From IMG/VR virus record IMGVR_UViG_3300025708_000007, positions 26,968-90,967 of that record: DNA of 64,000 nucleotides; one strand, given 5' to 3'. Shown here piece by piece: positions 7,713 through 42,787 of this stretch (its first letter is position 1; every line of letters begins with the position of its first letter). Under the pieces are notes generated by a model. The model was not told the DNA's origin. It saw only the letters and a program-made list of their open reading frames with translations, and searched no databases. The translations under genes were made by a program, and so were the position numbers. Source of the stretch: a virus. Its lineage: Duplodnaviria > Caudoviricetes.

Positions 7713-7785
7713 TGTCTCGTGGTGTAACGGCTAACATGGCTGACTCTGACTCAGGAGATTGCAGGTTCGAATCCTGCCGAGACAA
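7713..7785 (+). tRNA. tRNA-Gln(CTG)
   Basis: CTGA CT CTG AC TCAG; T1:A72. Confidence 0.9.
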
Positions 7786-7789
7786 CAGT

Positions 7790-7883
7790 GGTGACAGATA
7801 TAAAAAACTGCACGAGAAACAGACACGAGTGGGTTAAGAGTTGTTTTAATACCCGCAATGGTTGCCAGTACCTAATGTCACCC
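7790..7883 (+). ncRNA. Unassigned 94-nt structured RNA, copy 1
   Basis: Near-identical copy at 12760-12853 with compensatory changes. Confidence 0.75.
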
Positions 7884-7887
7884 AAAT

Positions 7888-7970
7888 TGACCTCTGGCAG
7901 AATGGTTATTGCATCGGTCTTTGAAGCCGACACCCTTTGTGGTTTACAGGTTCGAGTCCTGTGGGGTCAA
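7888..7970 (+). tRNA. tRNA-Gln(TTG) with long variable arm
   Basis: TCGGT CT TTG AA GCCGA; ~14-nt variable region. Confidence 0.8.
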
Positions 7971-8043
7971 CAAAATATATTTTTTTGCATATATTTTAAT
8001 ATGTTTGCATAAAATTATATTTATTTACATATATTTGCATAAT

Positions 8044-8198
8044 TATTGTTACGTGACGAAGCGATTCGTAATTAAGCCTTTGACTGTAAACCTTCACAGG
8101 GGTTCGGTTGCTTTCAGGATATAGTTCACTGGTTATGTGGAAAGTAACACTGTGTTAAGTGATAACTTAATGAAAGTAAAGACAGTCCCGTAACAATA
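8044..8198 (+). ncRNA. Unassigned ~155-nt multi-branched RNA
   Basis: TATTGTTACG / CGTAACAATA closing stem with internal hairpins. Confidence 0.5.
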
Positions 8199-8201
8199 CA
8201 T

Positions 8202-8275
8202 TGACCCGTAGTGTAATTGGTTAACACGTCTCACTTTGACTGAGAAGACTACAGGTTCGAGTCCTGTCGGGTCAA
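8202..8275 (+). tRNA. tRNA-Gln(TTG)
   Basis: CTCA CT TTG AC TGAG. Confidence 0.9.
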
Positions 8276-8745
8276 CTTTTTTTACGACAATGCGTTGGTA
8301 ATGTTGCGTTACAGTTAGGACATAAAATTCTTAGATTTTCAATTCTATGGTCTGAATTATCACCATTAATATGGTCGAGAATTAAACTTATATGTTCACC
8401 GTTCCAATTTTCATTCTGACCACATTTTTCACAAATACGTTTTTTTAATCCTTCTTCATATAATCTATTCTTAATATTACCCAAATTTGTATAGGTTGAG
8501 CCAGACACTAAAATTTCGATTGTTGAAATTTTGCGAGAATTATTTAATTTGGTGTTTGTTCTCATATACCGTTCTACTTTTGATTCGAAATGTGAAATAT
8601 CAATATCATATAATTTAATATATTTCTTTAGTGTAGGTCTCGAATTTCCTTTAATTCCCAATCCCAATTTTTGAAGTATTTCGGTATAATTTTTCGAGTT
8701 TTTTACAATAGGTTCAAAATTTTCTCGCAAATATTTTGTTTTCAT
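8272..8745 (-). CDS. HNH endonuclease (paralog of 45572-46246)
   Basis: CEKCG...LILDHINGDNSDHRIENLRILCPNC. Confidence 0.85.
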   Translation of the reverse strand: MKTKYLRENFEPIVKNSKNYTEILQKLGLGIKGNSRPTLKKYIKLYDIDISHFESKVERYMRTNTKLNNSRKISTIEILVSGSTYTNLGNIKNRLYEEGLKKRICEKCGQNENWNGEHISLILDHINGDNSDHRIENLRILCPNCNATLPTHCRKKS

Positions 8746-8810
8746 ATTTTATTTTTTTAACTTCGTGGTTTATTTTAAAATAAATAGTTAAAAATAAAAA
8801 AACAACAACG

Positions 8811-9212
8811 ATGAGTTACAATTTATTTCTTGACGACTTCCGCATGCCAAAAGATGCTTTTGACTACATGCATTTACCAGTCTATATTCAAAAAGAATGG
8901 ATTGTGGTTCGTAATTACCATGCATTTATTTCATTAATTGAAGGAAAAGGAATTCCCGAAATTATATCTTTTGACCATGACCTTGCAGATGAACATTATG
9001 ATTATCAGGAACATCTTGATGGTGATTATTATGATATAATGACTGAAAAAACAGGATACCATTGCGCAAAATGGCTCATTGATTATTGTATTGATAACAA
9101 TAAAGAACTTCCTGCAACGATTCTTATTCATTCGATGAATCCTGCTGGAAGTCTTAATATTAAATCTCTTTTCGATACCTATTATAAGTATCACGAAAAG
9201 GGTTTATTGTAA
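8811..9212 (+). CDS. Cyclic-phosphate processing receiver-domain protein
   Basis: LFLDDFR.P, ISFDHDL, KTGYHCAKWL, HSMNPAG motifs. Confidence 0.7.
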   Translation: MSYNLFLDDFRMPKDAFDYMHLPVYIQKEWIVVRNYHAFISLIEGKGIPEIISFDHDLADEHYDYQEHLDGDYYDIMTEKTGYHCAKWLIDYCIDNNKELPATILIHSMNPAGSLNIKSLFDTYYKYHEKGLL

Positions 9213-10358
9213 TTATCTTCTGCCACCACTTGAACTTCTACCTGCTGAACTGCTGGATGAAGAACTTCCCGAACTTCTACTTGCCCCGGACGAACCAGAA
9301 CTGAAAGAAGAACTGTTTCTGCTTTGATTCGAATAACTACTTGAACTTCTATTGTATGATTGTGGAGTACTTGATGAAGGACGTGAATAGCTGTTCGAAC
9401 TTCTTGAAGTGGATGGTGTCGAATATGACGGTCTGCTACTATTTGTAGAAGGACGAGAATAAATCGGTTTATCCTGATTTGAAGGAGTAGTTGTGCGAGT
9501 TTGCGTTTGGGTACGTGTCTGAGTAGTTGACGATGAACGAGTATATGTGCGATTTGGTGTTGTATTATTATAACTTGGTCTTGTACTCATACGTGGGTTT
9601 TCGTAAGAAGGAGTATATGTTCTTCTACTTTCACTATATGTTGGCTTATTCTGCGGATTAGTGGCAACAGTACGTCTTTCTTGTGTTGCTGTAACAGTAC
9701 GTGTTTGTGTCTGATTTTGAGCAACACTGATTCTTCTTGTTGGTTGACTAAGCGTCATTGTTGAAGGGCGTTCTCTACGACCATATTCAATATTGTTATA
9801 ATACGGCTTTGATTGATTCCAACTATAATAATTGTAATTAATTGTTTGATATCTTGGTGTATACCAATACCTATATGGTTGATGCCAATACCAGTGTGAA
9901 TAATATGGATACCCCCAACTATAATATGGATAATACCAATCATAATAGAATGGGTCATACCATCCATAATTCCAACTCCAATACCATGAATCATAATAAA
10001 ATGGTGAGTAATGATAACTATACCAAAAGCTAAAACTTCCGTGATGATACCTATTAATTAAATTTGCATAGTAATAATCATCGCTGTAATAATAATTGTT
10101 AACGATGGTTTTTTGTTGTTCCTTTTTAATTTCTCTTTTTTCTTGTCTTAAAAATTTTTGTTGCTGTTTGATAGTATCTAATTTAGCGTTATAATAGAGG
10201 TCATCAAACTCTGGTTTTTCTGCAACCTTCAATGTGTCACCAAATTTTGCAGCTTCTTTAGCTTCCCAATACTTCTCGTAATCGGATTTTTCTCTAACTT
10301 GTGCAATTAATGCACCAGTTAAAAGTAATGCAATTATTGTTAAGATTAATCTTTTCAT
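9213..10358 (-). CDS. Secreted Bacteroidota-type protein with Tyr/Trp-rich core and Ser/Arg-rich tail
   Basis: Signal peptide MKRLILTIIALLLTGALIAQ; low-complexity C terminus. Confidence 0.65.
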   Translation of the reverse strand: MKRLILTIIALLLTGALIAQVREKSDYEKYWEAKEAAKFGDTLKVAEKPEFDDLYYNAKLDTIKQQQKFLRQEKREIKKEQQKTIVNNYYYSDDYYYANLINRYHHGSFSFWYSYHYSPFYYDSWYWSWNYGWYDPFYYDWYYPYYSWGYPYYSHWYWHQPYRYWYTPRYQTINYNYYSWNQSKPYYNNIEYGRRERPSTMTLSQPTRRISVAQNQTQTRTVTATQERRTVATNPQNKPTYSESRRTYTPSYENPRMSTRPSYNNTTPNRTYTRSSSTTQTRTQTQTRTTTPSNQDKPIYSRPSTNSSRPSYSTPSTSRSSNSYSRPSSSTPQSYNRSSSSYSNQSRNSSSFSSGSSGASRSSGSSSSSSSAGRSSSGGRR

Positions 10359-10440
10359 ATCTTGTGTGTTTAAATAAATAAAACAATTTTCGTGCCGGAA
10401 TTATTAATATCTTTATGGTATTTATTATAAATATTTGATT

Positions 10441-11154
10441 ATGAAAAATCGGGGTGGTAGACAAAGACTTTTTGAAGTTCTGGCAAAAGTAGACCCAACT
10501 TTCAAACCCAAAGCAGGTACTGGTGCAAAGCTATATGTAAAGCCATCGGATGTGCCGTTACAAATCATTGATTGGGCAAAATCAATTGTTGGCGGTGGCT
10601 TTCAAAACAATATAACAATACAAAAATCAACAGGTGCTGTAAAACTTGGTATGCCTTGGCATGATGCTGATAGAGAAACACACCAATATTTTAAATTAAT
10701 GGATAATGGTGCTGCTGAAATGGGAAATCCAGTATCAAGGTCAGGCTGGTCAGAAGTAAATATGGGTGATAGTTATGGTGAAGTTCCAATACCGTCAGGT
10801 TATGTTTTAGCAACAGTTGGTACATATCCAAAAAGGCTTAGAATAGTAACAAACCCGGATGCGATGGATGTGCTTTCAAATAATGATGAAGCATTAAACA
10901 AACTTTCTGATGAAGCATTGGTTGCGTTACACCAAGCAAAATCATATAAATCGTTTGCCAGACAAAAATTTAATAATAGTGTTTATGAGGAATTATTATC
11001 ATCTGGATTAATGAACAAACAAAGAGCAATAACAATTGATGGAAGAAATTTCATTAGTTCTCCAGAAGCCATTAAAAAATTAAAAAACATTAAAGAAAAA
11101 GATGAAAAGGAAAATGGCAGATGGAGTGCGAAATATTATATGCCAAGTATTTAA
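10441..11154 (+). CDS. Hypothetical protein with RLFEV leader
   Basis: RQRLFEVLAKVDPTFKPK. Confidence 0.7.
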   Translation: MKNRGGRQRLFEVLAKVDPTFKPKAGTGAKLYVKPSDVPLQIIDWAKSIVGGGFQNNITIQKSTGAVKLGMPWHDADRETHQYFKLMDNGAAEMGNPVSRSGWSEVNMGDSYGEVPIPSGYVLATVGTYPKRLRIVTNPDAMDVLSNNDEALNKLSDEALVALHQAKSYKSFARQKFNNSVYEELLSSGLMNKQRAITIDGRNFISSPEAIKKLKNIKEKDEKENGRWSAKYYMPSI

Positions 11155-11169
11155 TATAAAATAAATGTT

Positions 11170-12093
11170 ATGAAAAAAGATAGCAAACAAAGACTTTTCG
11201 AAGTTATGAGCAGACTTGATAAAACATTCAAGCCAAAATTGAATGAAATTTTTGGGGAAGAACCAGAAGAATTCGTCCCACACGGCACATATACTGTTTC
11301 GAATGCAGGTGGTTATGAAATTATGTTAAACGATGCGGGTGATGCTGCCAAAGTACGTGATGCGTTTGGCTCAGACAACCCAAAAACTTCAGATTGGTTA
11401 GAAATAGAATACACGCCTGATAATGAAACTGGCGAAAGTGAACCAGTTATTGACCCAAATGGTTATAACATTCCTTTAAATCAGGTTATGAGATTACAAG
11501 AAGAAGCAAATGTTAATGAAGAACAAACCAGACCATTATATGATATTGCTCAAGAAATCTATCAGGACTGGAGACCAGTTCATCCATATGCAAAACCATA
11601 TCTTGAAGCAATGTCAACATTGAATTCAATAGATGATAACTATATGATGGATTCAGGTAGAAGTATTGTTTCATATTTTCTTTCAAATGCAAGTCAATGG
11701 AAAGGTGAAACAGCAAAACGCATTAAAATTGAATTGAAAAAAATGTTAGGAATGCGAGAAGGTAGTAGATTAAATGAAACTGGTGAATGGGCAGGTGATG
11801 AAGATGATATAGCATGGATAGATGCTCTCAAATCTGAAGTACAAAAAATCGAATCAGAAACTGATGGAAAATTAAAATTGGTCGAAGTCAGGGGTTTCGA
11901 TAAATATCAAGGACCTTACGCCATTGTTGATATTGAAGGAAGAAAATACAAAATCTGGACAGTTGGTGGTGAATATGATAGCGATTTACTTTGGATTGAA
12001 AATTATCCCATTGACAATACTTCAAGTGAGGATATGAATGCTGGTTTTATGGGTACAACAAAAACAATTATTAATATGTTGAAACAGAACTGA
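11170..12093 (+). CDS. Hypothetical multi-segment protein with RLFEVM leader
   Basis: KQRLFEVMSRLDKTFKPKLNE; internal VNEE and LNE junctions. Confidence 0.7.
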   Translation: MKKDSKQRLFEVMSRLDKTFKPKLNEIFGEEPEEFVPHGTYTVSNAGGYEIMLNDAGDAAKVRDAFGSDNPKTSDWLEIEYTPDNETGESEPVIDPNGYNIPLNQVMRLQEEANVNEEQTRPLYDIAQEIYQDWRPVHPYAKPYLEAMSTLNSIDDNYMMDSGRSIVSYFLSNASQWKGETAKRIKIELKKMLGMREGSRLNETGEWAGDEDDIAWIDALKSEVQKIESETDGKLKLVEVRGFDKYQGPYAIVDIEGRKYKIWTVGGEYDSDLLWIENYPIDNTSSEDMNAGFMGTTKTIINMLKQN

Positions 12094-12137
12094 TTGCAAA
12101 ACTTGAAAAATTATTTTTAAAAATAATTGAAAAAAAG

Positions 12138-12168
12138 TTTGTTTATTTTGAAACATTTTTTATCTTTG
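12138..12168 (+). promoter_or_regulatory. Bacteroidota-type promoter of tRNA operon B
   Basis: TTTG, 19 nt, TATCTTTG. Confidence 0.8.
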
Positions 12169-12233
12169 TATCGTATAATTGCAAAACAAATAGTATTTAA
12201 ATAAAAAGTATTAACAATTAAAATTCAAAACGA

Positions 12234-12329
12234 ATGAAAAGAATGCTCGACATATCAGTAATGGCAGTAGCCTTGAACGCAGTCCTATTATGGGATGCAG
12301 TAGAGGATGCGCTATGCAAAGTCGGGTAA
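12234..12329 (+). CDS. Leader peptide B, MKRMLDISVMAVALNAVLLWDAVEDALCKVG (putative attenuator)
   Basis: 20 of 31 residues are L/V/A/D/E/W, matching the downstream tRNAs. Confidence 0.8.
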   Translation: MKRMLDISVMAVALNAVLLWDAVEDALCKVG

Positions 12330-12361
12330 TTTGTATTCATATACAACCTCCTTTCTAAATG

Positions 12362-12398
12362 AAAAGACCCGACTTCCCTACAAGCCGGGTTTTTTTTT
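12362..12398 (+). terminator. Attenuator terminator B
   Basis: ACCCGACTT / AAGCCGGGT plus T run; 5' arm perfectly complementary to AAGTCGGGT (12319-27). Confidence 0.85.
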
Positions 12399-12408
12399 GA
12401 AAGGAGAA

Positions 12409-12426
12409 GTTCTTTGACATGCTGGA
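12409..12426 (+). promoter_or_regulatory. boxA-like antitermination element
   Basis: GTTCTTTGACATGCTGGA, identical at 34045-34062. Confidence 0.6.
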
Positions 12427-12431
12427 AATTT

Positions 12432-12507
12432 GGTGCTGGGGTCTGCTTGGCGTGGACGCATGACTGTCACTCATGATATCAGGAGAGTTCGAATCTCTTC
12501 AGCACCG
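12432..12507 (+). tRNA. tRNA-Asp(GTC)
   Basis: CATGA CT GTC AC TCATG; G73. Confidence 0.9.
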
Positions 12508-12511
12508 CATA

Positions 12512-12629
12512 CGGTCTTATAAATAATTACCCTGAGTAAATCGGGTAGCCGATGTACACGGTTTGGAACGATTCGGAAAGCAAGCATGCATTGCTCGATG
12601 AGGGGGGGTTCGAATCCCTGTAAGACCGC
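12512..12629 (+). ncRNA. tRNA-like RNA: acceptor stem and T arm with a non-tRNA interior
   Basis: CGGTCTTA / TAAGACCG; GGG TTCGAAT CCC. Confidence 0.55.
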
Positions 12630-12634
12630 AATTT

Positions 12635-12706
12635 CGAGGTCGTAGTTTAATGGTTAGAATGCCACCCTGTCACGATGGAGAAGGGGTTCGAATCCCACGG
12701 CTTCGG
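12635..12706 (+). tRNA. tRNA-Asp(GTC), weak T stem
   Basis: CCACC CT GTC AC GATGG. Confidence 0.7.
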
Positions 12707-12759
12707 CAAATTTTACTGTTAAAGCAGTAAAAAGTGCCATATATGATACTAAAGATAGT

Positions 12760-12853
12760 GATGACCGATGTAAAAAACTGCACGAGAAACAGACACGAGT
12801 GGGTTAAGAGTTGTTTTAATACCCGCAACGGTTGCCAGTACCCAAGGTCATCC
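12760..12853 (+). ncRNA. Unassigned 94-nt structured RNA, copy 2
   Basis: 87 of 94 nt identical to 7790-7883. Confidence 0.75.
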
Positions 12854-12857
12854 AGAT

Positions 12858-12931
12858 GCTGCGTTCGGCAAGATGGTTAAGCCGTAAGACCTTCAATCTT
12901 ACATGCATGGGTTCGAGTCCCATACGCAGTA
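12858..12931 (+). tRNA. tRNA-Glu(TTC) with non-canonical C33
   Basis: TAAGA CC TTC AA TCTTA. Confidence 0.7.
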
Positions 12932-13046
12932 CAAGTGAAATCGAAATGTCGTAAGATAGTAGTAGTTAAGTCTACCGATTTTTGTGGTTTTGAGCACGAG
13001 ACGCTCATGTAATAGGGCATACACTCCCTTTCCACCACTTACTTAT

Positions 13047-14944: not shown

Positions 14945-14947
14945 CAA

Positions 14948-15027
14948 AATGAAATACAGAAAGTCTGGGTCAAACCCCAGAGAGACGTAAAATGTCGAGA
15001 AGTGTGACGGCACGTCTGTATTTCATT
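14948..15027 (+). ncRNA. 80-nt cloverleaf-topology RNA with 13-bp closing stem
   Basis: AATGAAATACAGA / TCTGTATTTCATT enclosing three short hairpins. Confidence 0.55.
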
Positions 15028-15031
15028 CTTT

Positions 15032-18154: not shown

Positions 18155-18527
18155 GGGGCAGTTTGGTTTTGACAGCATGCTTGAATGGTATGTAAGCAAG
18201 TCGTAGTTTGAGCAACACTACGTAAAAACAGGTTCAAAACAATAAATGCAGAGGATATAATGTCCATTCCTACTTCTCTAACGAGAGGTCGCTTATTTGT
18301 AGAGAGTGCTGAACTCGCAATGGTAGCGTAAGGAAGCAGCAAACGCAGCAAAAACCTTCCAAATAAACCCATCTCGATGGAACTTGTTATTTTAACAGAG
18401 AGATAAGGAAGTAAAATAAAACAGTGGATAAAAAATAAATGTTTTGCTGATTTAGAAAAATCAGATAAACTTGTAGAAAACGTATTGGGCACATGACTGC
18501 ACACGGGTTCGAATCCCGTCTGCTCCA
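18155..18527 (+). ncRNA. ssrA: tmRNA
   Basis: GGGGCAG / CTGCTCC-A acceptor with G3:U70, stemless D region, T arm, resume context TAAAT-GCA and a tag ORF ending AMVA. Confidence 0.9.
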
Positions 18528-18552
18528 CTAAAACATTTAAAACATTGAAATT

Positions 18553-25328: not shown

Positions 25329-26423
25329 ATGAAGTTAAATTACAAAATATTAGAAAAGGTCGATTGGAAAGTCTTGCAGACTTACATTGATAACAGTCTT
25401 ATTGTCGCAAATAAGCATCCAGAATATGACATTTGGATATTGAACTATTCACCAAAAGTTCAATCTAAGAAATTCTGGGATGAATATACTTTATCTGCAC
25501 GTGGACTCGTTATTGATGCAGAGGGTAATATTGTTGCACGTCCATATCAGAAGTTCATGAACCTTGAAGAACATGACCCAGCAGACATTGATATGTCTCA
25601 GGAATATGAGGTTTTTGAAAAGGTAGATGGGTCATTAATCATCCTTTTCTATTACGAACCACGTATGCAATGGATTTTTGCTTCAAGAGGCTCATTCATT
25701 TCAGAACAGGCATTGGAAGCACAGAAAATGTTCAACCACACTGTTCAGGAAAAAATGAGTTCAAAATATACTTATTTGTTTGAAGTCTTATATCCAGAAA
25801 ACCGTATTGTGGTTGATTATGGTAGCAGAAGGGAACTTGTGTTACTTGGAAAAATGAACACCACTACGGGTGAAGAATGCCCATACGAATATCTTGTTGA
25901 CAAATATTCAAAGCATTTTACTGTCGTGAAAAGAATTGACGTAAGACTCGATAATTTATCCGAATTAAAAAGGCTTGAAGAAGACAACAAGGAAGGGTTC
26001 GTGGTGAGATTCAAGAACGGTTTCAGGGTTAAAGTCAAATTTAACGAATACGTTAGATTGCATGGTATTCTAACAAATGTTTCAAACATAACTGTTTGGG
26101 AACATTTGGTGAATAACTACAATTTTGACCAGTTACTTGACAGAGTGCCAGACGAATTTTATGGTTGGCTACAAAGAGTCGTAGCGTCATTGCAAGGAAA
26201 ATACGATGAAATTGAAAAAGAATCGTTGAAAGAATTCGTGAGAATTTACCACACCAATGGTATTATTGAACGTAAGGATTTTGCAATGGAAGCTTTGAAA
26301 TCGGACTACCGTTCGATTCTTTTCAAAATGTACGACAAAAAACCATATGAATCGATAATCTGGAATATGGTGCGTCCTGTATATAGTAAGCCATTCAAGG
26401 ATGGTTTCGAATATAGTATATAA
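25329..26423 (+). CDS. T4 Rnl1-type RNA ligase
   Basis: KVDGS motif I, EGFVV motif IV, RVKVK. Confidence 0.88.
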   Translation: MKLNYKILEKVDWKVLQTYIDNSLIVANKHPEYDIWILNYSPKVQSKKFWDEYTLSARGLVIDAEGNIVARPYQKFMNLEEHDPADIDMSQEYEVFEKVDGSLIILFYYEPRMQWIFASRGSFISEQALEAQKMFNHTVQEKMSSKYTYLFEVLYPENRIVVDYGSRRELVLLGKMNTTTGEECPYEYLVDKYSKHFTVVKRIDVRLDNLSELKRLEEDNKEGFVVRFKNGFRVKVKFNEYVRLHGILTNVSNITVWEHLVNNYNFDQLLDRVPDEFYGWLQRVVASLQGKYDEIEKESLKEFVRIYHTNGIIERKDFAMEALKSDYRSILFKMYDKKPYESIIWNMVRPVYSKPFKDGFEYSI

Positions 26424-42577: not shown

Positions 42578-42787
42578 ATATTCATTATAAGTGAGTAGTA
42601 GCGTGTATTTTACATGAGAAAACTCCGAACACCGTTGCTGGACGCAGGAGACCTAAACAGTCGTTAATACTGCGGAGTGGTGCAAGCCAAATAGACTTAG
42701 AGGGAAAGCAACTCAGTGATAGTCGGGTTGGTGCATTAGATAAATTACTACATAAAGCAGAATTCGGGTTACGGCTGTAATGAATAT
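42578..42787 (+). ncRNA. rnpB: Minimal RNase P RNA candidate
   Basis: P1, P2, P3, P4 with bulged U (AAC-U-CCGAA / TTCGGGTT), GCAAGCCAAATAG, TAGATAAAT and GCAGAATTCGGGTTAC conserved-region motifs in the correct order. Confidence 0.75.

What the first reader, a model, noticed from the sequence alone, without database searches (positions are those of the whole stretch)
7790..12853. Duplicated 94-nt RNA with three compensatory base-pair changes, each copy just before a tRNA
Copies at 7790-7883 and 12760-12853 differ at 7 positions. Six form compensatory pairs in the terminal helix (2/92 G-C to A-T, 7/87 A-T to C-G, 11/84 A-T to G-C), which is strong evidence of a conserved structure. The interior has a long hairpin (GTGGGT-TAAGA / TTTTA-ACCCGC) and a T-arm-like GGT TGCCAGT ACC. 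The copies sit before Gln(TTG) and Glu(TTC) tRNAs. I cannot assign a family; a Y-RNA-like or decoy function is speculation.
Basis: seen in the sequence. Interest (0 to 1): 0.75.

Follow-up and report, generated by a model that had tools for sequence, protein, structure and literature searches.

The report
Cloverleaf-shaped RNA gene among phage tRNAs
A giant uncultured phage carries two copies of a 94-base gene for a folded, tRNA-shaped RNA that is not a tRNA, sits among its tRNA genes like one more tRNA, and matches no described RNA family; its job is unknown.

Summary
Copies at 7790-7883 and 12760-12853 differ at 7 positions, and 6 of these form three compensatory pairs. I found 11 more copies in related phage contigs, giving 9 distinct sequences. 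One is a distant homolog, about 60% identical, in another phage lineage. Across these sequences 98% of the proposed pairs hold and 10 pairs change on both sides.

The fold is cloverleaf-like: a 7-bp terminal stem with a 2-bp extension, then three hairpins. G-U pairs place the RNA on the tRNA strand. Spacers to neighbouring tRNAs are 3-6 nt, which is typical of tRNA-tRNA spacing here.

No Rfam family, tRNA model or ARAGORN call matches it. The Y-RNA reading fails, because the motif is absent and no Ro60 gene was found.

The most likely reading is a stable tRNA-like RNA cut from the tRNA operon transcript by RNase P and end trimming, as with T4 species 1 and 2 RNAs. Its function is unknown; my guess is that it mimics tRNA. 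Expression is untested.

The family is narrow: three lineages among about 55 related contigs. It occupies different slots in different phages, so it behaves as a movable cassette. The scan has noted other tRNA-like cassette arrays in unrelated phages, but not this family.

The parts
7790..7883 (+). Copy 1 of the 94-nt RNA gene, in the Gln slot between tRNA-Gln(CUG) and tRNA-Gln(UUG)
   Evidence: The same type occurs at the same slot in metagenome contig L160. The distant homolog in L199/L211 is also in the Gln slot.
12760..12853 (+). Copy 2 of the 94-nt RNA gene, in the Glu slot 4 nt before tRNA-Glu(UUC)
   Evidence: This type sits 3-4 nt before tRNA-Glu(UUC) in L082, L149, L151-L154, L156-L158 and L221.
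7790..7796 (+). P1 5' strand, copy 1 (element positions 1-7). It pairs with 7876-7882. In copy 2 the strands are 12760-12766 and 12846-12852.
   Evidence: All 7 pairs hold in all 9 distinct sequences. Pairs 1/93, 2/92, 6/88 and 7/87 change on both sides, and 7/87 shows four pair types.
7876..7882 (+). P1 3' strand, copy 1 (positions 87-93), followed by the unpaired and invariant C94 at 7883
   Evidence: C94 is invariant in A7.
7799..7800 (+). P1b, a 2-bp extension (positions 10-11) pairing with 7873-7874 (positions 84-85) across a purine bulge (GA, or AA in L199)
   Evidence: Pairs 10/85 and 11/84 both change on both sides.
7801..7808 (+). Invariant A-rich junction UAAAAAAC (positions 12-19). 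In copy 2 it lies at 12771-12778.
   Evidence: Invariant in all 9 distinct sequences, including the distant homolog.
7808..7822 (+). P1a small hairpin: CUG/CAG (positions 19-21 with 31-33) and a 9-nt loop CACGAGAAA
   Evidence: It appears in the minimum-energy fold of copy 1. The distant homolog independently folds a CUGG/CCAG hairpin with a 4-nt loop at the same place. There is no covariation, so support is moderate.
7829..7856 (+). P2 long hairpin (positions 40-67). Its lower stem GUGGGU/ACCCGC is conserved in sequence. In copy 2 it lies at 12799-12826.
   Evidence: Pairs 43/64 and 44/63 change from G-C to A-U in L154. Pairs 41/66 and 43/64 switch between G-U and Watson-Crick. The apical loop varies: GUUG, GAUG or UUUG.
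7860..7872 (+). P3 small hairpin GGU-loop-ACC (positions 71-83). In copy 2 it lies at 12830-12842.
   Evidence: The stem is invariant in all sequences. The loop is UGCCAGU here and UAGAGC in L199. L199 also forms this hairpin in its own fold.
7713..7786 (+). tRNA-Gln(CUG), the upstream neighbour of copy 1 (3-nt spacer AGU)
7888..7971 (+). tRNA-Gln(UUG), 84 nt with a long variable arm; the downstream neighbour of copy 1 (4-nt spacer)
12858..12932 (+). tRNA-Glu(UUC), the downstream neighbour of copy 2 (4-nt spacer)
12708..12759 (+). Conserved upstream module of the Glu-slot copy: an 8-bp hairpin followed by a near-palindromic AGTGCCATATATGATACT
   Evidence: Conserved in alignment A5. It is repeated 2-3 times before tRNA-Glu in relatives that lack the element.

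Best explanation
This is a gene for a small structured RNA of about 94 nt. It occupies the place of a tRNA gene in the tRNA operons of a giant phage. The genome is roughly 330-360 kb by its relatives, with Bacteroidota-style promoters, from activated-sludge-type samples. The RNA folds into a cloverleaf-like shape: a 7-bp terminal stem extended by 2 bp across a purine bulge, an invariant A-rich junction, and three hairpins (P1a, the long P2 and the small P3), with one unpaired C at the 3' end. I infer that it is co-transcribed with its tRNA neighbours. I infer that RNase P frees its 5' end, cutting after the conserved U at -1 and before the 7-bp stem. I infer that its 3' end is freed when the next tRNA, 4 nt downstream, is cleaved, followed by trimming. 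That would give a stable tRNA-like RNA, as with T4 species 1 and 2 RNAs. My best guess for its action is that it is recognised by shape, as a tRNA mimic that occupies a tRNA-binding factor such as a processing enzyme or a tRNA-directed nuclease. I think antisense pairing is less likely. Shown here: the sequence family, the strand, the covarying fold, strong conservation, tRNA-like spacing, and movement between slots. Inferred: transcription, processing and stability. Guessed: the mimic function.
For: 1. Fold. In 9 distinct sequences 98.3% of pair cells are standard pairs, and 10 pairs change on both sides. No shuffle of 500 reached this, and slid controls gave 0-2 such pairs. The distant homolog L199:16611-16699 folds on its own into the same four helices, with z -2.9.
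2. Strand. The G-U pairs 41/66, 49/56 and 43/64 would be A-C mismatches on the other strand.
3. Constraint. The element is 96% identical between G000 and G005. Twenty tRNAs and the tmRNA of the same two phages are 64-97% identical, mostly 70-80%, and the upstream spacer is 57% identical.
4. tRNA-like unit. It has an exact 7-bp terminal stem. Spacers of 3-6 nt fall in the usual tRNA-tRNA range of 1-8 nt in this clade. It lies inside operons of same-strand tRNAs.
5. RNase P. [quoted passage not shown] The window also holds a 206-nt partial match to RNase P RNA.
6. Precedent. T4 has rnaC and rnaD 1-6 nt from tRNA-Arg in its tRNA cluster.
7. Not antisense. The loop and linker carrying the CACGAG repeats are not conserved in the distant homolog. 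No complementary target stands out in the 91-kb record.
Against: The existence of the transcript, its ends and its stability are therefore all inferred. P1a and P3 have no covariation. The tRNA covariance model and ARAGORN do not recognise the element. The junction lengths differ from tRNA, so recognition by tRNA enzymes is not assured. The 96% identity between G000 and G005 could partly reflect recent exchange between phages rather than constraint, since tRNA-Leu(CAA) is also 97% identical. Most relatives, including five complete genomes, lack the element, so it is dispensable for this phage type.
Confidence: 0.6

Rival explanations
1. It is a cis-acting leader of the downstream tRNA. The structure would help or gate maturation of tRNA-Glu(UUC) and tRNA-Gln(UUG), or their transcription, and would not act as a free RNA.
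For: Every one of the 13 copies lies 3-6 nt upstream of a tRNA: Glu(UUC) or the long-arm Gln(UUG). The Glu-slot copy follows a conserved upstream module.
Against: It serves two unrelated tRNAs. Relatives have the same tRNAs without it: L151 has the Gln-Gln pair directly adjacent, and L165, L183 and G051 have the Glu slot empty of it. No terminator or alternative pairing with the tRNA is conserved. The P3 loop complementarity to the Gln D-stem is absent in L199.
Confidence: 0.15
2. It is a decaying tRNA gene, or a tRNA-derived relic with no function of its own.
For: It has cloverleaf topology, a 7-bp terminal stem and a position inside tRNA arrays. These arrays hold many odd tRNA-like units.
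Against: Ten pairs are maintained by double changes. Long invariant junctions exist. Conservation is higher than for nearly all real tRNAs between G000 and G005. A pseudogene would not keep its pairing.
Confidence: 0.07
3. It is a trans-acting antisense small RNA. The single-stranded stretch at positions 12-39, with two CACGAG repeats, would pair with a phage or host mRNA.
For: Positions 12-39 are invariant in the 8 close variants.
Against: The CACGAG loop and linker are replaced in the L199 homolog; only UAAAAAAC is kept. The best duplex in the 91-kb record (-19.9 kcal/mol) is weaker than those found with shuffled queries (-20.5 to -25.6). Only 28% of the genome was searchable and no host genome was available.
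Confidence: 0.07
4. It is a selfish mobile cassette whose terminal inverted repeat acts at the DNA level.
For: It occupies different slots in different lineages: Gln only in G039/G051, Glu only in G005 and L151, and both in G000 and L160. Its edges are clean. It is 96% identical across phages whose flanks are 57-76% identical. HNH and GIY-YIG endonuclease genes lie in the arrays.
Against: Terminal repeats bound by a transposase should keep their sequence rather than covary. G-U pairs fit RNA on one strand only. No target-site duplication is seen. Mobility and an RNA function can coexist.
Confidence: 0.06
5. It is a Y-RNA-like partner of a Ro60 (Rsr) protein.
For: The size (80-130 nt) and the stem formed by the two ends resemble Y RNAs. 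Some bacterial Y RNAs carry tRNA-like modules and occur in phages (PMC4201824). A Bacteroides control genome encodes a TROVE protein.
Against: No Rfam Y-RNA or YrlA match appears even at E up to 10. The GNCGAAN0-1G motif is absent: position 7 varies among A, C, U and G, covarying with position 87. No TROVE gene was found in G000, G005 or the complete relative G004.
Confidence: 0.03

Closest known systems
Bacteriophage T4 species 1 and species 2 RNAs (rnaC, rnaD)
   Same: They are small stable RNAs of unknown function encoded inside a phage tRNA cluster, 1-6 nt from a tRNA, on the tRNA strand, next to a homing endonuclease gene. T4 rnaC also pairs its two ends and carries tRNA-type features. 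From general knowledge, they are released by tRNA processing enzymes.
   Different: There is no sequence or model similarity: model R3 gives nothing at rnaC or rnaD. The T4 RNAs are 119-139 nt. rnaC has a canonical GGUUCGAAUCC T arm, while this element has only a 3-bp hairpin with a variable loop.
Canonical tRNA (Rfam RF00005)
   Same: It shares a 7-bp terminal stem, one unpaired 3' base, three hairpins in cloverleaf order, and the position and spacing of a tRNA gene.
   Different: There is no hit from the tRNA model or ARAGORN. The first junction is 11-12 nt instead of 2. There is no 7-nt anticodon loop, and the P2 apex varies. The third hairpin has 3 bp instead of 5, lacks the T-loop consensus, and is separated from P1 by 2-3 nt.
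Bacterial Y RNAs with a tRNA-like domain (YrlA; PMC4201824)
   Same: They are of similar size and pair their two ends. One member is cut by RNase P thanks to a 7-bp acceptor-like stem, and some are phage-encoded.
   Different: The Ro60-binding motif is absent. There are no canonical D- or T-arm mimics, no neighbouring Ro60 gene and no Rfam match.
Other tRNA-like cassette arrays noted by this scan in unrelated phages (e1-162090, e1-143581, e1-5379362)
   Same: They are the same kind of thing: folded non-decoding RNAs interleaved with phage tRNAs, absent from Rfam, and presumed to be excised by tRNA-trimming enzymes.
   Different: They come from different phages and different sequences. Those are unchecked notes, and I did not compare the sequences.

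Membership tests
tRNA (RF00005) | Scores above threshold with the tRNA covariance model, or is called by a tRNA finder | tested here: not met
   There is no RF00005 hit at 7790-7883 or 12760-12853, even at E up to 10, and none in homologs. ARAGORN calls none.
tRNA (RF00005) | 7-bp acceptor stem with an unpaired discriminator base | tested here: met
   Pairs 1-7 with 87-93 hold in all sequences, and C94 is unpaired and invariant.
tRNA (RF00005) | 7-nt anticodon loop and a 5-bp T stem with the T-loop consensus | tested here: not met
   The P2 apex is a variable 4-nt loop. P3 has 3 bp, and its loop differs between the two types.
Bacterial Y RNA / YrlA | GNCGAAN0-1G motif in the Ro60-binding stem (PMC4201824) | tested here: not met
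   The corresponding stretch reads ACCGAU, ACAGAU, ACUGAU or AUGAAC. Position 7 covaries with position 87.
Bacterial Y RNA / YrlA | Encoded next to a Ro60/Rsr (TROVE) gene | tested here: not met
   PF05731 was not found in G000, G005 or the complete relative G004, while the control genomes matched. G000 and G005 are fragments and the host is unknown.
Bacterial Y RNA / YrlA | Match to Rfam Y-RNA-type models | tested here: not met
   Searches show no such hit.
Phage tRNA-cluster stable RNAs (T4 rnaC/rnaD kind) | Non-tRNA gene inside a phage tRNA cluster, on the same strand, a few nt from tRNAs | tested here: met
Phage tRNA-cluster stable RNAs (T4 rnaC/rnaD kind) | Accumulates as a discrete stable RNA released by RNase P | not testable with these tools
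Phage tRNA-cluster stable RNAs (T4 rnaC/rnaD kind) | Sequence or structure homology to rnaC or rnaD | tested here: not met
   R3 with filters off on the T4 locus gave a best score of 10.9 bits, away from rnaC and rnaD.
tmRNA | Match to the tmRNA model | tested here: not met
   The only tmRNA in the window is at 18155-18530. The element gives no hit.

The most novel reading that the evidence does not exclude
The element is a movable, tRNA-shaped RNA cassette that giant phages exchange. It would act as an RNA decoy or inhibitor of a host factor that recognises tRNA shape, such as a tRNA-cutting defence nuclease. Alternatively, it would work together with the phage's own reduced RNase P RNA. Either way it would be an RNA-only accessory of the phage's private translation kit.
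Probability: 0.12. Interest if true: 0.8.

Novelty: new member of a known kind. Interest (0 to 1): 0.5.

Why it matters
Giant phages carry near-complete tRNA sets, and these arrays are usually annotated as tRNAs plus empty spacers. Here one "spacer" is a covariation-supported RNA gene. It is better conserved than nearly all the tRNAs around it, appears in different slots in different phages, and has no described family. It is also not alone. In this clade 39 of 135 distinct inter-tRNA gaps have a terminal stem abutting both neighbours, against about 11 expected by chance. The arrays therefore seem to be mixed operons of tRNAs and tRNA-like RNAs. The function of such RNAs has been open since the T4 species 1 and 2 RNAs were found. 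A small family with clear covariation and natural presence/absence variants gives a tractable case to test. It would not overturn anything, and the family is narrow.

Tried and rejected
- Rfam. Searches at gathering threshold and at E up to 10, on the window and on four homolog loci, gave nothing for the element.
- Pairing of position 11 with 70. I rejected it because position 70 is U, C or G with no partner change.
- RNAalifold's long-range helix 18-23 with 74-80. It is invariant in the close variants, and the complementarity is absent in L199, whose P3 loop differs. I rejected it in favour of the P1a and P3 hairpins.
- Antisense target scan of the 91-kb record. The result was no better than with shuffled queries.
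- Coding. Every frame lacks a start codon, and the interior shows no synonymous-type variation.
- Ideas from memory. A C/D-box reading (GUGAUGA at the 5' end of copy 2), a mini-tmRNA reading, a tRNA with an intron in P2, and a resemblance of GGGUUAAG..CCCGCAA to 16S rRNA were all dropped. Copy 1 or L199 lack the motifs, there is no G3-U70, and no model supports them.
- Searches for more homologs.
  - An exact 20-mer in IMG/VR found none.
  - Two 15-16-mers in IMG/VR found only L082.
  - A gapped conserved-core pattern found only the L199/L211 contigs.
  - R2 on 50 related records and R3 on 59 loci found nothing new.
  - The default filters and the genome-search first look missed the L199 homolog. 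It was found only by a gap scan and then confirmed with filters off. More distant members may therefore still be hidden.
- Searching relatives for RF00010 failed even on the window's own record, so it says nothing.


Full report
**What the window is**

The window is part of a 90,967-bp IMG/VR virus record, estimated at about 28% complete. It carries 50 tRNA genes and a tmRNA, all on the + strand. It also carries a T4 Rnl1-type RNA ligase, a ribonucleotide reductase and an HNH endonuclease. A 615-aa protein just upstream of the first array has relatives on 55 IMG/VR contigs. Several of these are complete genomes of 327-363 kb. This is therefore one clade of giant phages with syntenic tRNA arrays.

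**Checking the observation**

The copies lie at 7790-7883 and 12760-12853 and differ at positions 2, 7, 11, 70, 84, 87 and 92.
- Seven random changes would hit both sides of three or more proposed pairs with probability about 2e-5.
- They would all miss the 58-nt interior with probability about 8e-4.
- Similarity ends at the element's borders.
- Copy 1 lies 3 nt after tRNA-Gln(CUG) and 4 nt before an 84-nt tRNA-Gln(UUG). Copy 2 lies 4 nt before tRNA-Glu(UUC).
- No Rfam family matches at the curated thresholds or at E up to 10.

**Relatives of the element**

Pattern scans plus a covariance model built from the two copies found:
- one more copy in IMG/VR (L082 = G005);
- nine copies in metagenome contigs, some labelled activated sludge;
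- one copy on a 5.9-kb contig binned into an Anaerolinea MAG, which is clearly phage because it has the same tRNA order.

These give 8 distinct sequences. The Glu-slot type is always 3-4 nt before tRNA-Glu(UUC). The Gln-slot type occurs only in the window and L160. In L151 the two Gln tRNAs are directly adjacent, and in G005 the Gln slot holds a different tRNA-like unit.

Default-filter model searches of 50 related records found nothing. I then scanned every inter-tRNA gap in the 55 related loci for terminal stems. That scan turned up a distant homolog in two contigs (L199/L211, G039/G051) in the Gln slot.
- It shares the UAAAAAAC junction, the CUG/CAG hairpin, the GUGGGUU...ACCCAC hairpin base and the CGGUU...ACC hairpin.
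- It is only about 60% identical overall.
- With filters off the older model scores it at 29 bits.
- Its Glu slot is empty of the element.
- A final model that includes it finds nothing further in 1.08 Mb of related loci.

The family is thus confined to three lineages of the clade.

**Structure**

On the 9 distinct sequences 98.3% of pair cells are standard pairs and 10 pairs change on both sides. No shuffle of 500 reached this, and slid controls gave 0-2 such pairs.
- **P1 (1-7 with 87-93) and its 2-bp extension (10-11 with 84-85).** These are the best supported. Six of nine pairs covary, and pair 7/87 appears as C-G, A-U, U-A and G-C.
- **P2.** It has double changes at 43/64 and 44/63 in L154, and G-U to Watson-Crick switches at 41/66 and 43/64.
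- **P3 (GGU/ACC) and P1a (CUG/CAG).** Neither varies. However, the distant homolog, folded alone, gives the same four helices with z about -3. Copy 1's own minimum-energy fold shows them too.

The alignment used for the counts was fitted to the model. MAFFT places the P1 columns of L199 identically.

The G-U pairs mean the structure exists on the + strand RNA, the strand of the tRNAs. Two alternatives were discarded. Pairing 11 with 70 fails because position 70 varies freely. The RNAalifold helix 18-23 with 74-80 fails because its complementarity is lost in L199.

The overall shape is a cloverleaf: a terminal stem closing a junction with three hairpins. The junction lengths, the 3-bp third hairpin and the variable P2 apex are unlike tRNA.

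**Constraint and mobility**

Between G000 and G005 the element is 96% identical. Twenty tRNAs and the tmRNA range from 64% to 97%, mostly 70-80%. The adjacent tRNA-Glu is 76% identical and the upstream spacer 57%.

This indicates strong constraint, recent exchange between phages, or both. The drop to about 60% identity in G039/G051, whose marker protein is only slightly more distant, hints that exchange plays a part.

The element sits in the Gln slot only, the Glu slot only, or both, depending on lineage. It always has clean borders. It therefore behaves as a discrete cassette, like the tRNA genes themselves. HNH and GIY-YIG endonuclease genes lie within the arrays, as segB does in T4.

**How it most likely works**

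- **Shown:** a conserved folded RNA gene on the tRNA strand, placed and spaced like a tRNA. Spacers are 3-6 nt, and the usual tRNA-tRNA spacers in the clade are 1-8 nt.
- **Inferred:** co-transcription with the tRNAs, 5' cleavage by RNase P at U-1/G1, and 3' release by cleavage of the next tRNA plus trimming. A 7-bp acceptor-type stem is cited as a major RNase P determinant, and a bacterial Y RNA with such a stem is cut by M1 RNA (PMC4201824). The window also has a 206-nt partial match to bacterial RNase P RNA at 42582-42787. It scores 48.7 bits with E 6e-14, below the curated cut-off, so the phage may bring its own enzyme.
- **Guessed:** the RNA acts by its shape, as a tRNA mimic. What is conserved across the two types is the architecture, the A-rich junction, the G-C base of P2 and P3. 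The CACGAG-bearing loop and linker are replaced in L199. No complementary target stands out in the 91 kb available.

**Comparison with known things**

The closest known case is the pair of T4 stable RNAs rnaC and rnaD. They lie in the T4 tRNA cluster 1-6 nt from tRNA-Arg and have no assigned function. There is no homology to them.

The Y-RNA idea fails on the stem motif, on Rfam and on the absence of a TROVE gene in the phage records I could search. The host could still encode one. The element is not a tRNA by any model.

Literature searches for such RNAs in giant or jumbo phage tRNA arrays found nothing relevant. Notes from this scan describe comparable tRNA-like cassette arrays in unrelated phages. 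The kind has therefore been seen before in the scan, but this family has not.

**Wider context seen on the way**

In the clade 39 of 135 distinct inter-tRNA gaps carry a terminal stem of 7 bp or more abutting both neighbours. Shuffles gave 11.2 +/- 2.8. Examples:
- a cloverleaf-like 86-nt unit at 14946-15031, with z -4.5;
- a 126-nt unit with a canonical T arm at 12509-12634;
- a family of about 150 nt between Pro and His tRNAs in five relatives.

The element under study is the best-supported member of what looks like a general habit of these phages.

**Verdict**

The element is a real, new small RNA family of a known kind, with unknown function and narrow distribution. Expression is the missing piece.

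Noticed in passing
window 42582-42787 (+): A 206-nt stretch matches bacterial RNase P RNA class A end to end (48.7 bits, E 6e-14), below the curated 100-bit cut-off. It may be a strongly reduced phage-encoded RNase P RNA.
   Followed up: partly
window 14946-15031 (+): The 86-nt gap between two tRNA-Ala genes folds into a 13-bp terminal stem closing three hairpins (-30 kcal/mol, z -4.5). It is another cloverleaf-like non-tRNA unit with no Rfam match.
   Followed up: partly
window 12509-12634 (+): A 126-nt unit between two tRNA-Asp genes has an acceptor-like stem (GGUCUUA/UAAGACC) and a canonical GGUUCGAAUCC T arm around a long unrelated interior. Neither ARAGORN nor Rfam calls it. G005 has a similar unit in its Gln slot (L148:8086-8200).
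   Followed up: partly
window 7888-7971 (+); also L009:8731-8817, L151:3443-3528, L148:8244-8325, L211:16705-16788: A tRNA-Gln(UUG) of 82-87 nt with a long variable arm is conserved across the clade, beside a normal-sized tRNA-Gln(UUG). Long variable arms normally belong to Leu, Ser and Tyr tRNAs.
   Followed up: no
window 12708-12759 (+); L082:292-395; L165:19840-19960; L183:19030-19150: A module made of an 8-bp hairpin plus the near-palindrome AGTG(C/T)CATATATGATACT precedes tRNA-Glu(UUC). It is repeated 2-3 times in relatives. It occurs only once in the window, so it is not a general promoter.
   Followed up: partly
L186:14236-14386, L187:14298-14450, L190:14950-15101, L195:14280-14431, L208:14778-14926: A conserved structured unit of about 150 nt lies between tRNA-Pro and tRNA-His in five relatives, with a terminal stem and a GGUGAAAAUCC T-arm-like hairpin. 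It looks like a further undescribed cassette family.
   Followed up: no
L162:21368-21446 (G005, between tRNA-Ala and tRNA-Leu(UAA)): A 72-nt stem-bounded unit shares GTTTTAATACCC..AATGG with the element (local score reached by 0 of 2000 shuffles, picked from 47 candidates). It also shares TGACAGA with copy 1. This may reflect module exchange between cassettes.
   Followed up: partly
L221 (CAYPJS010000146.1): A 5.9-kb contig with this phage's tRNA order and the element is deposited as part of an uncultured Anaerolinea MAG. This is either mis-binning or a hint about the host.
   Followed up: no
window 46324-46399 (+): A tRNA with anticodon CUA (amber suppressor type) is labelled Pyl by ARAGORN.
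   Followed up: no
window 25329-26423 (+): A T4 Rnl1-type RNA ligase gene lies between the tRNA arrays. It would suit repair of cut tRNAs.
   Followed up: no
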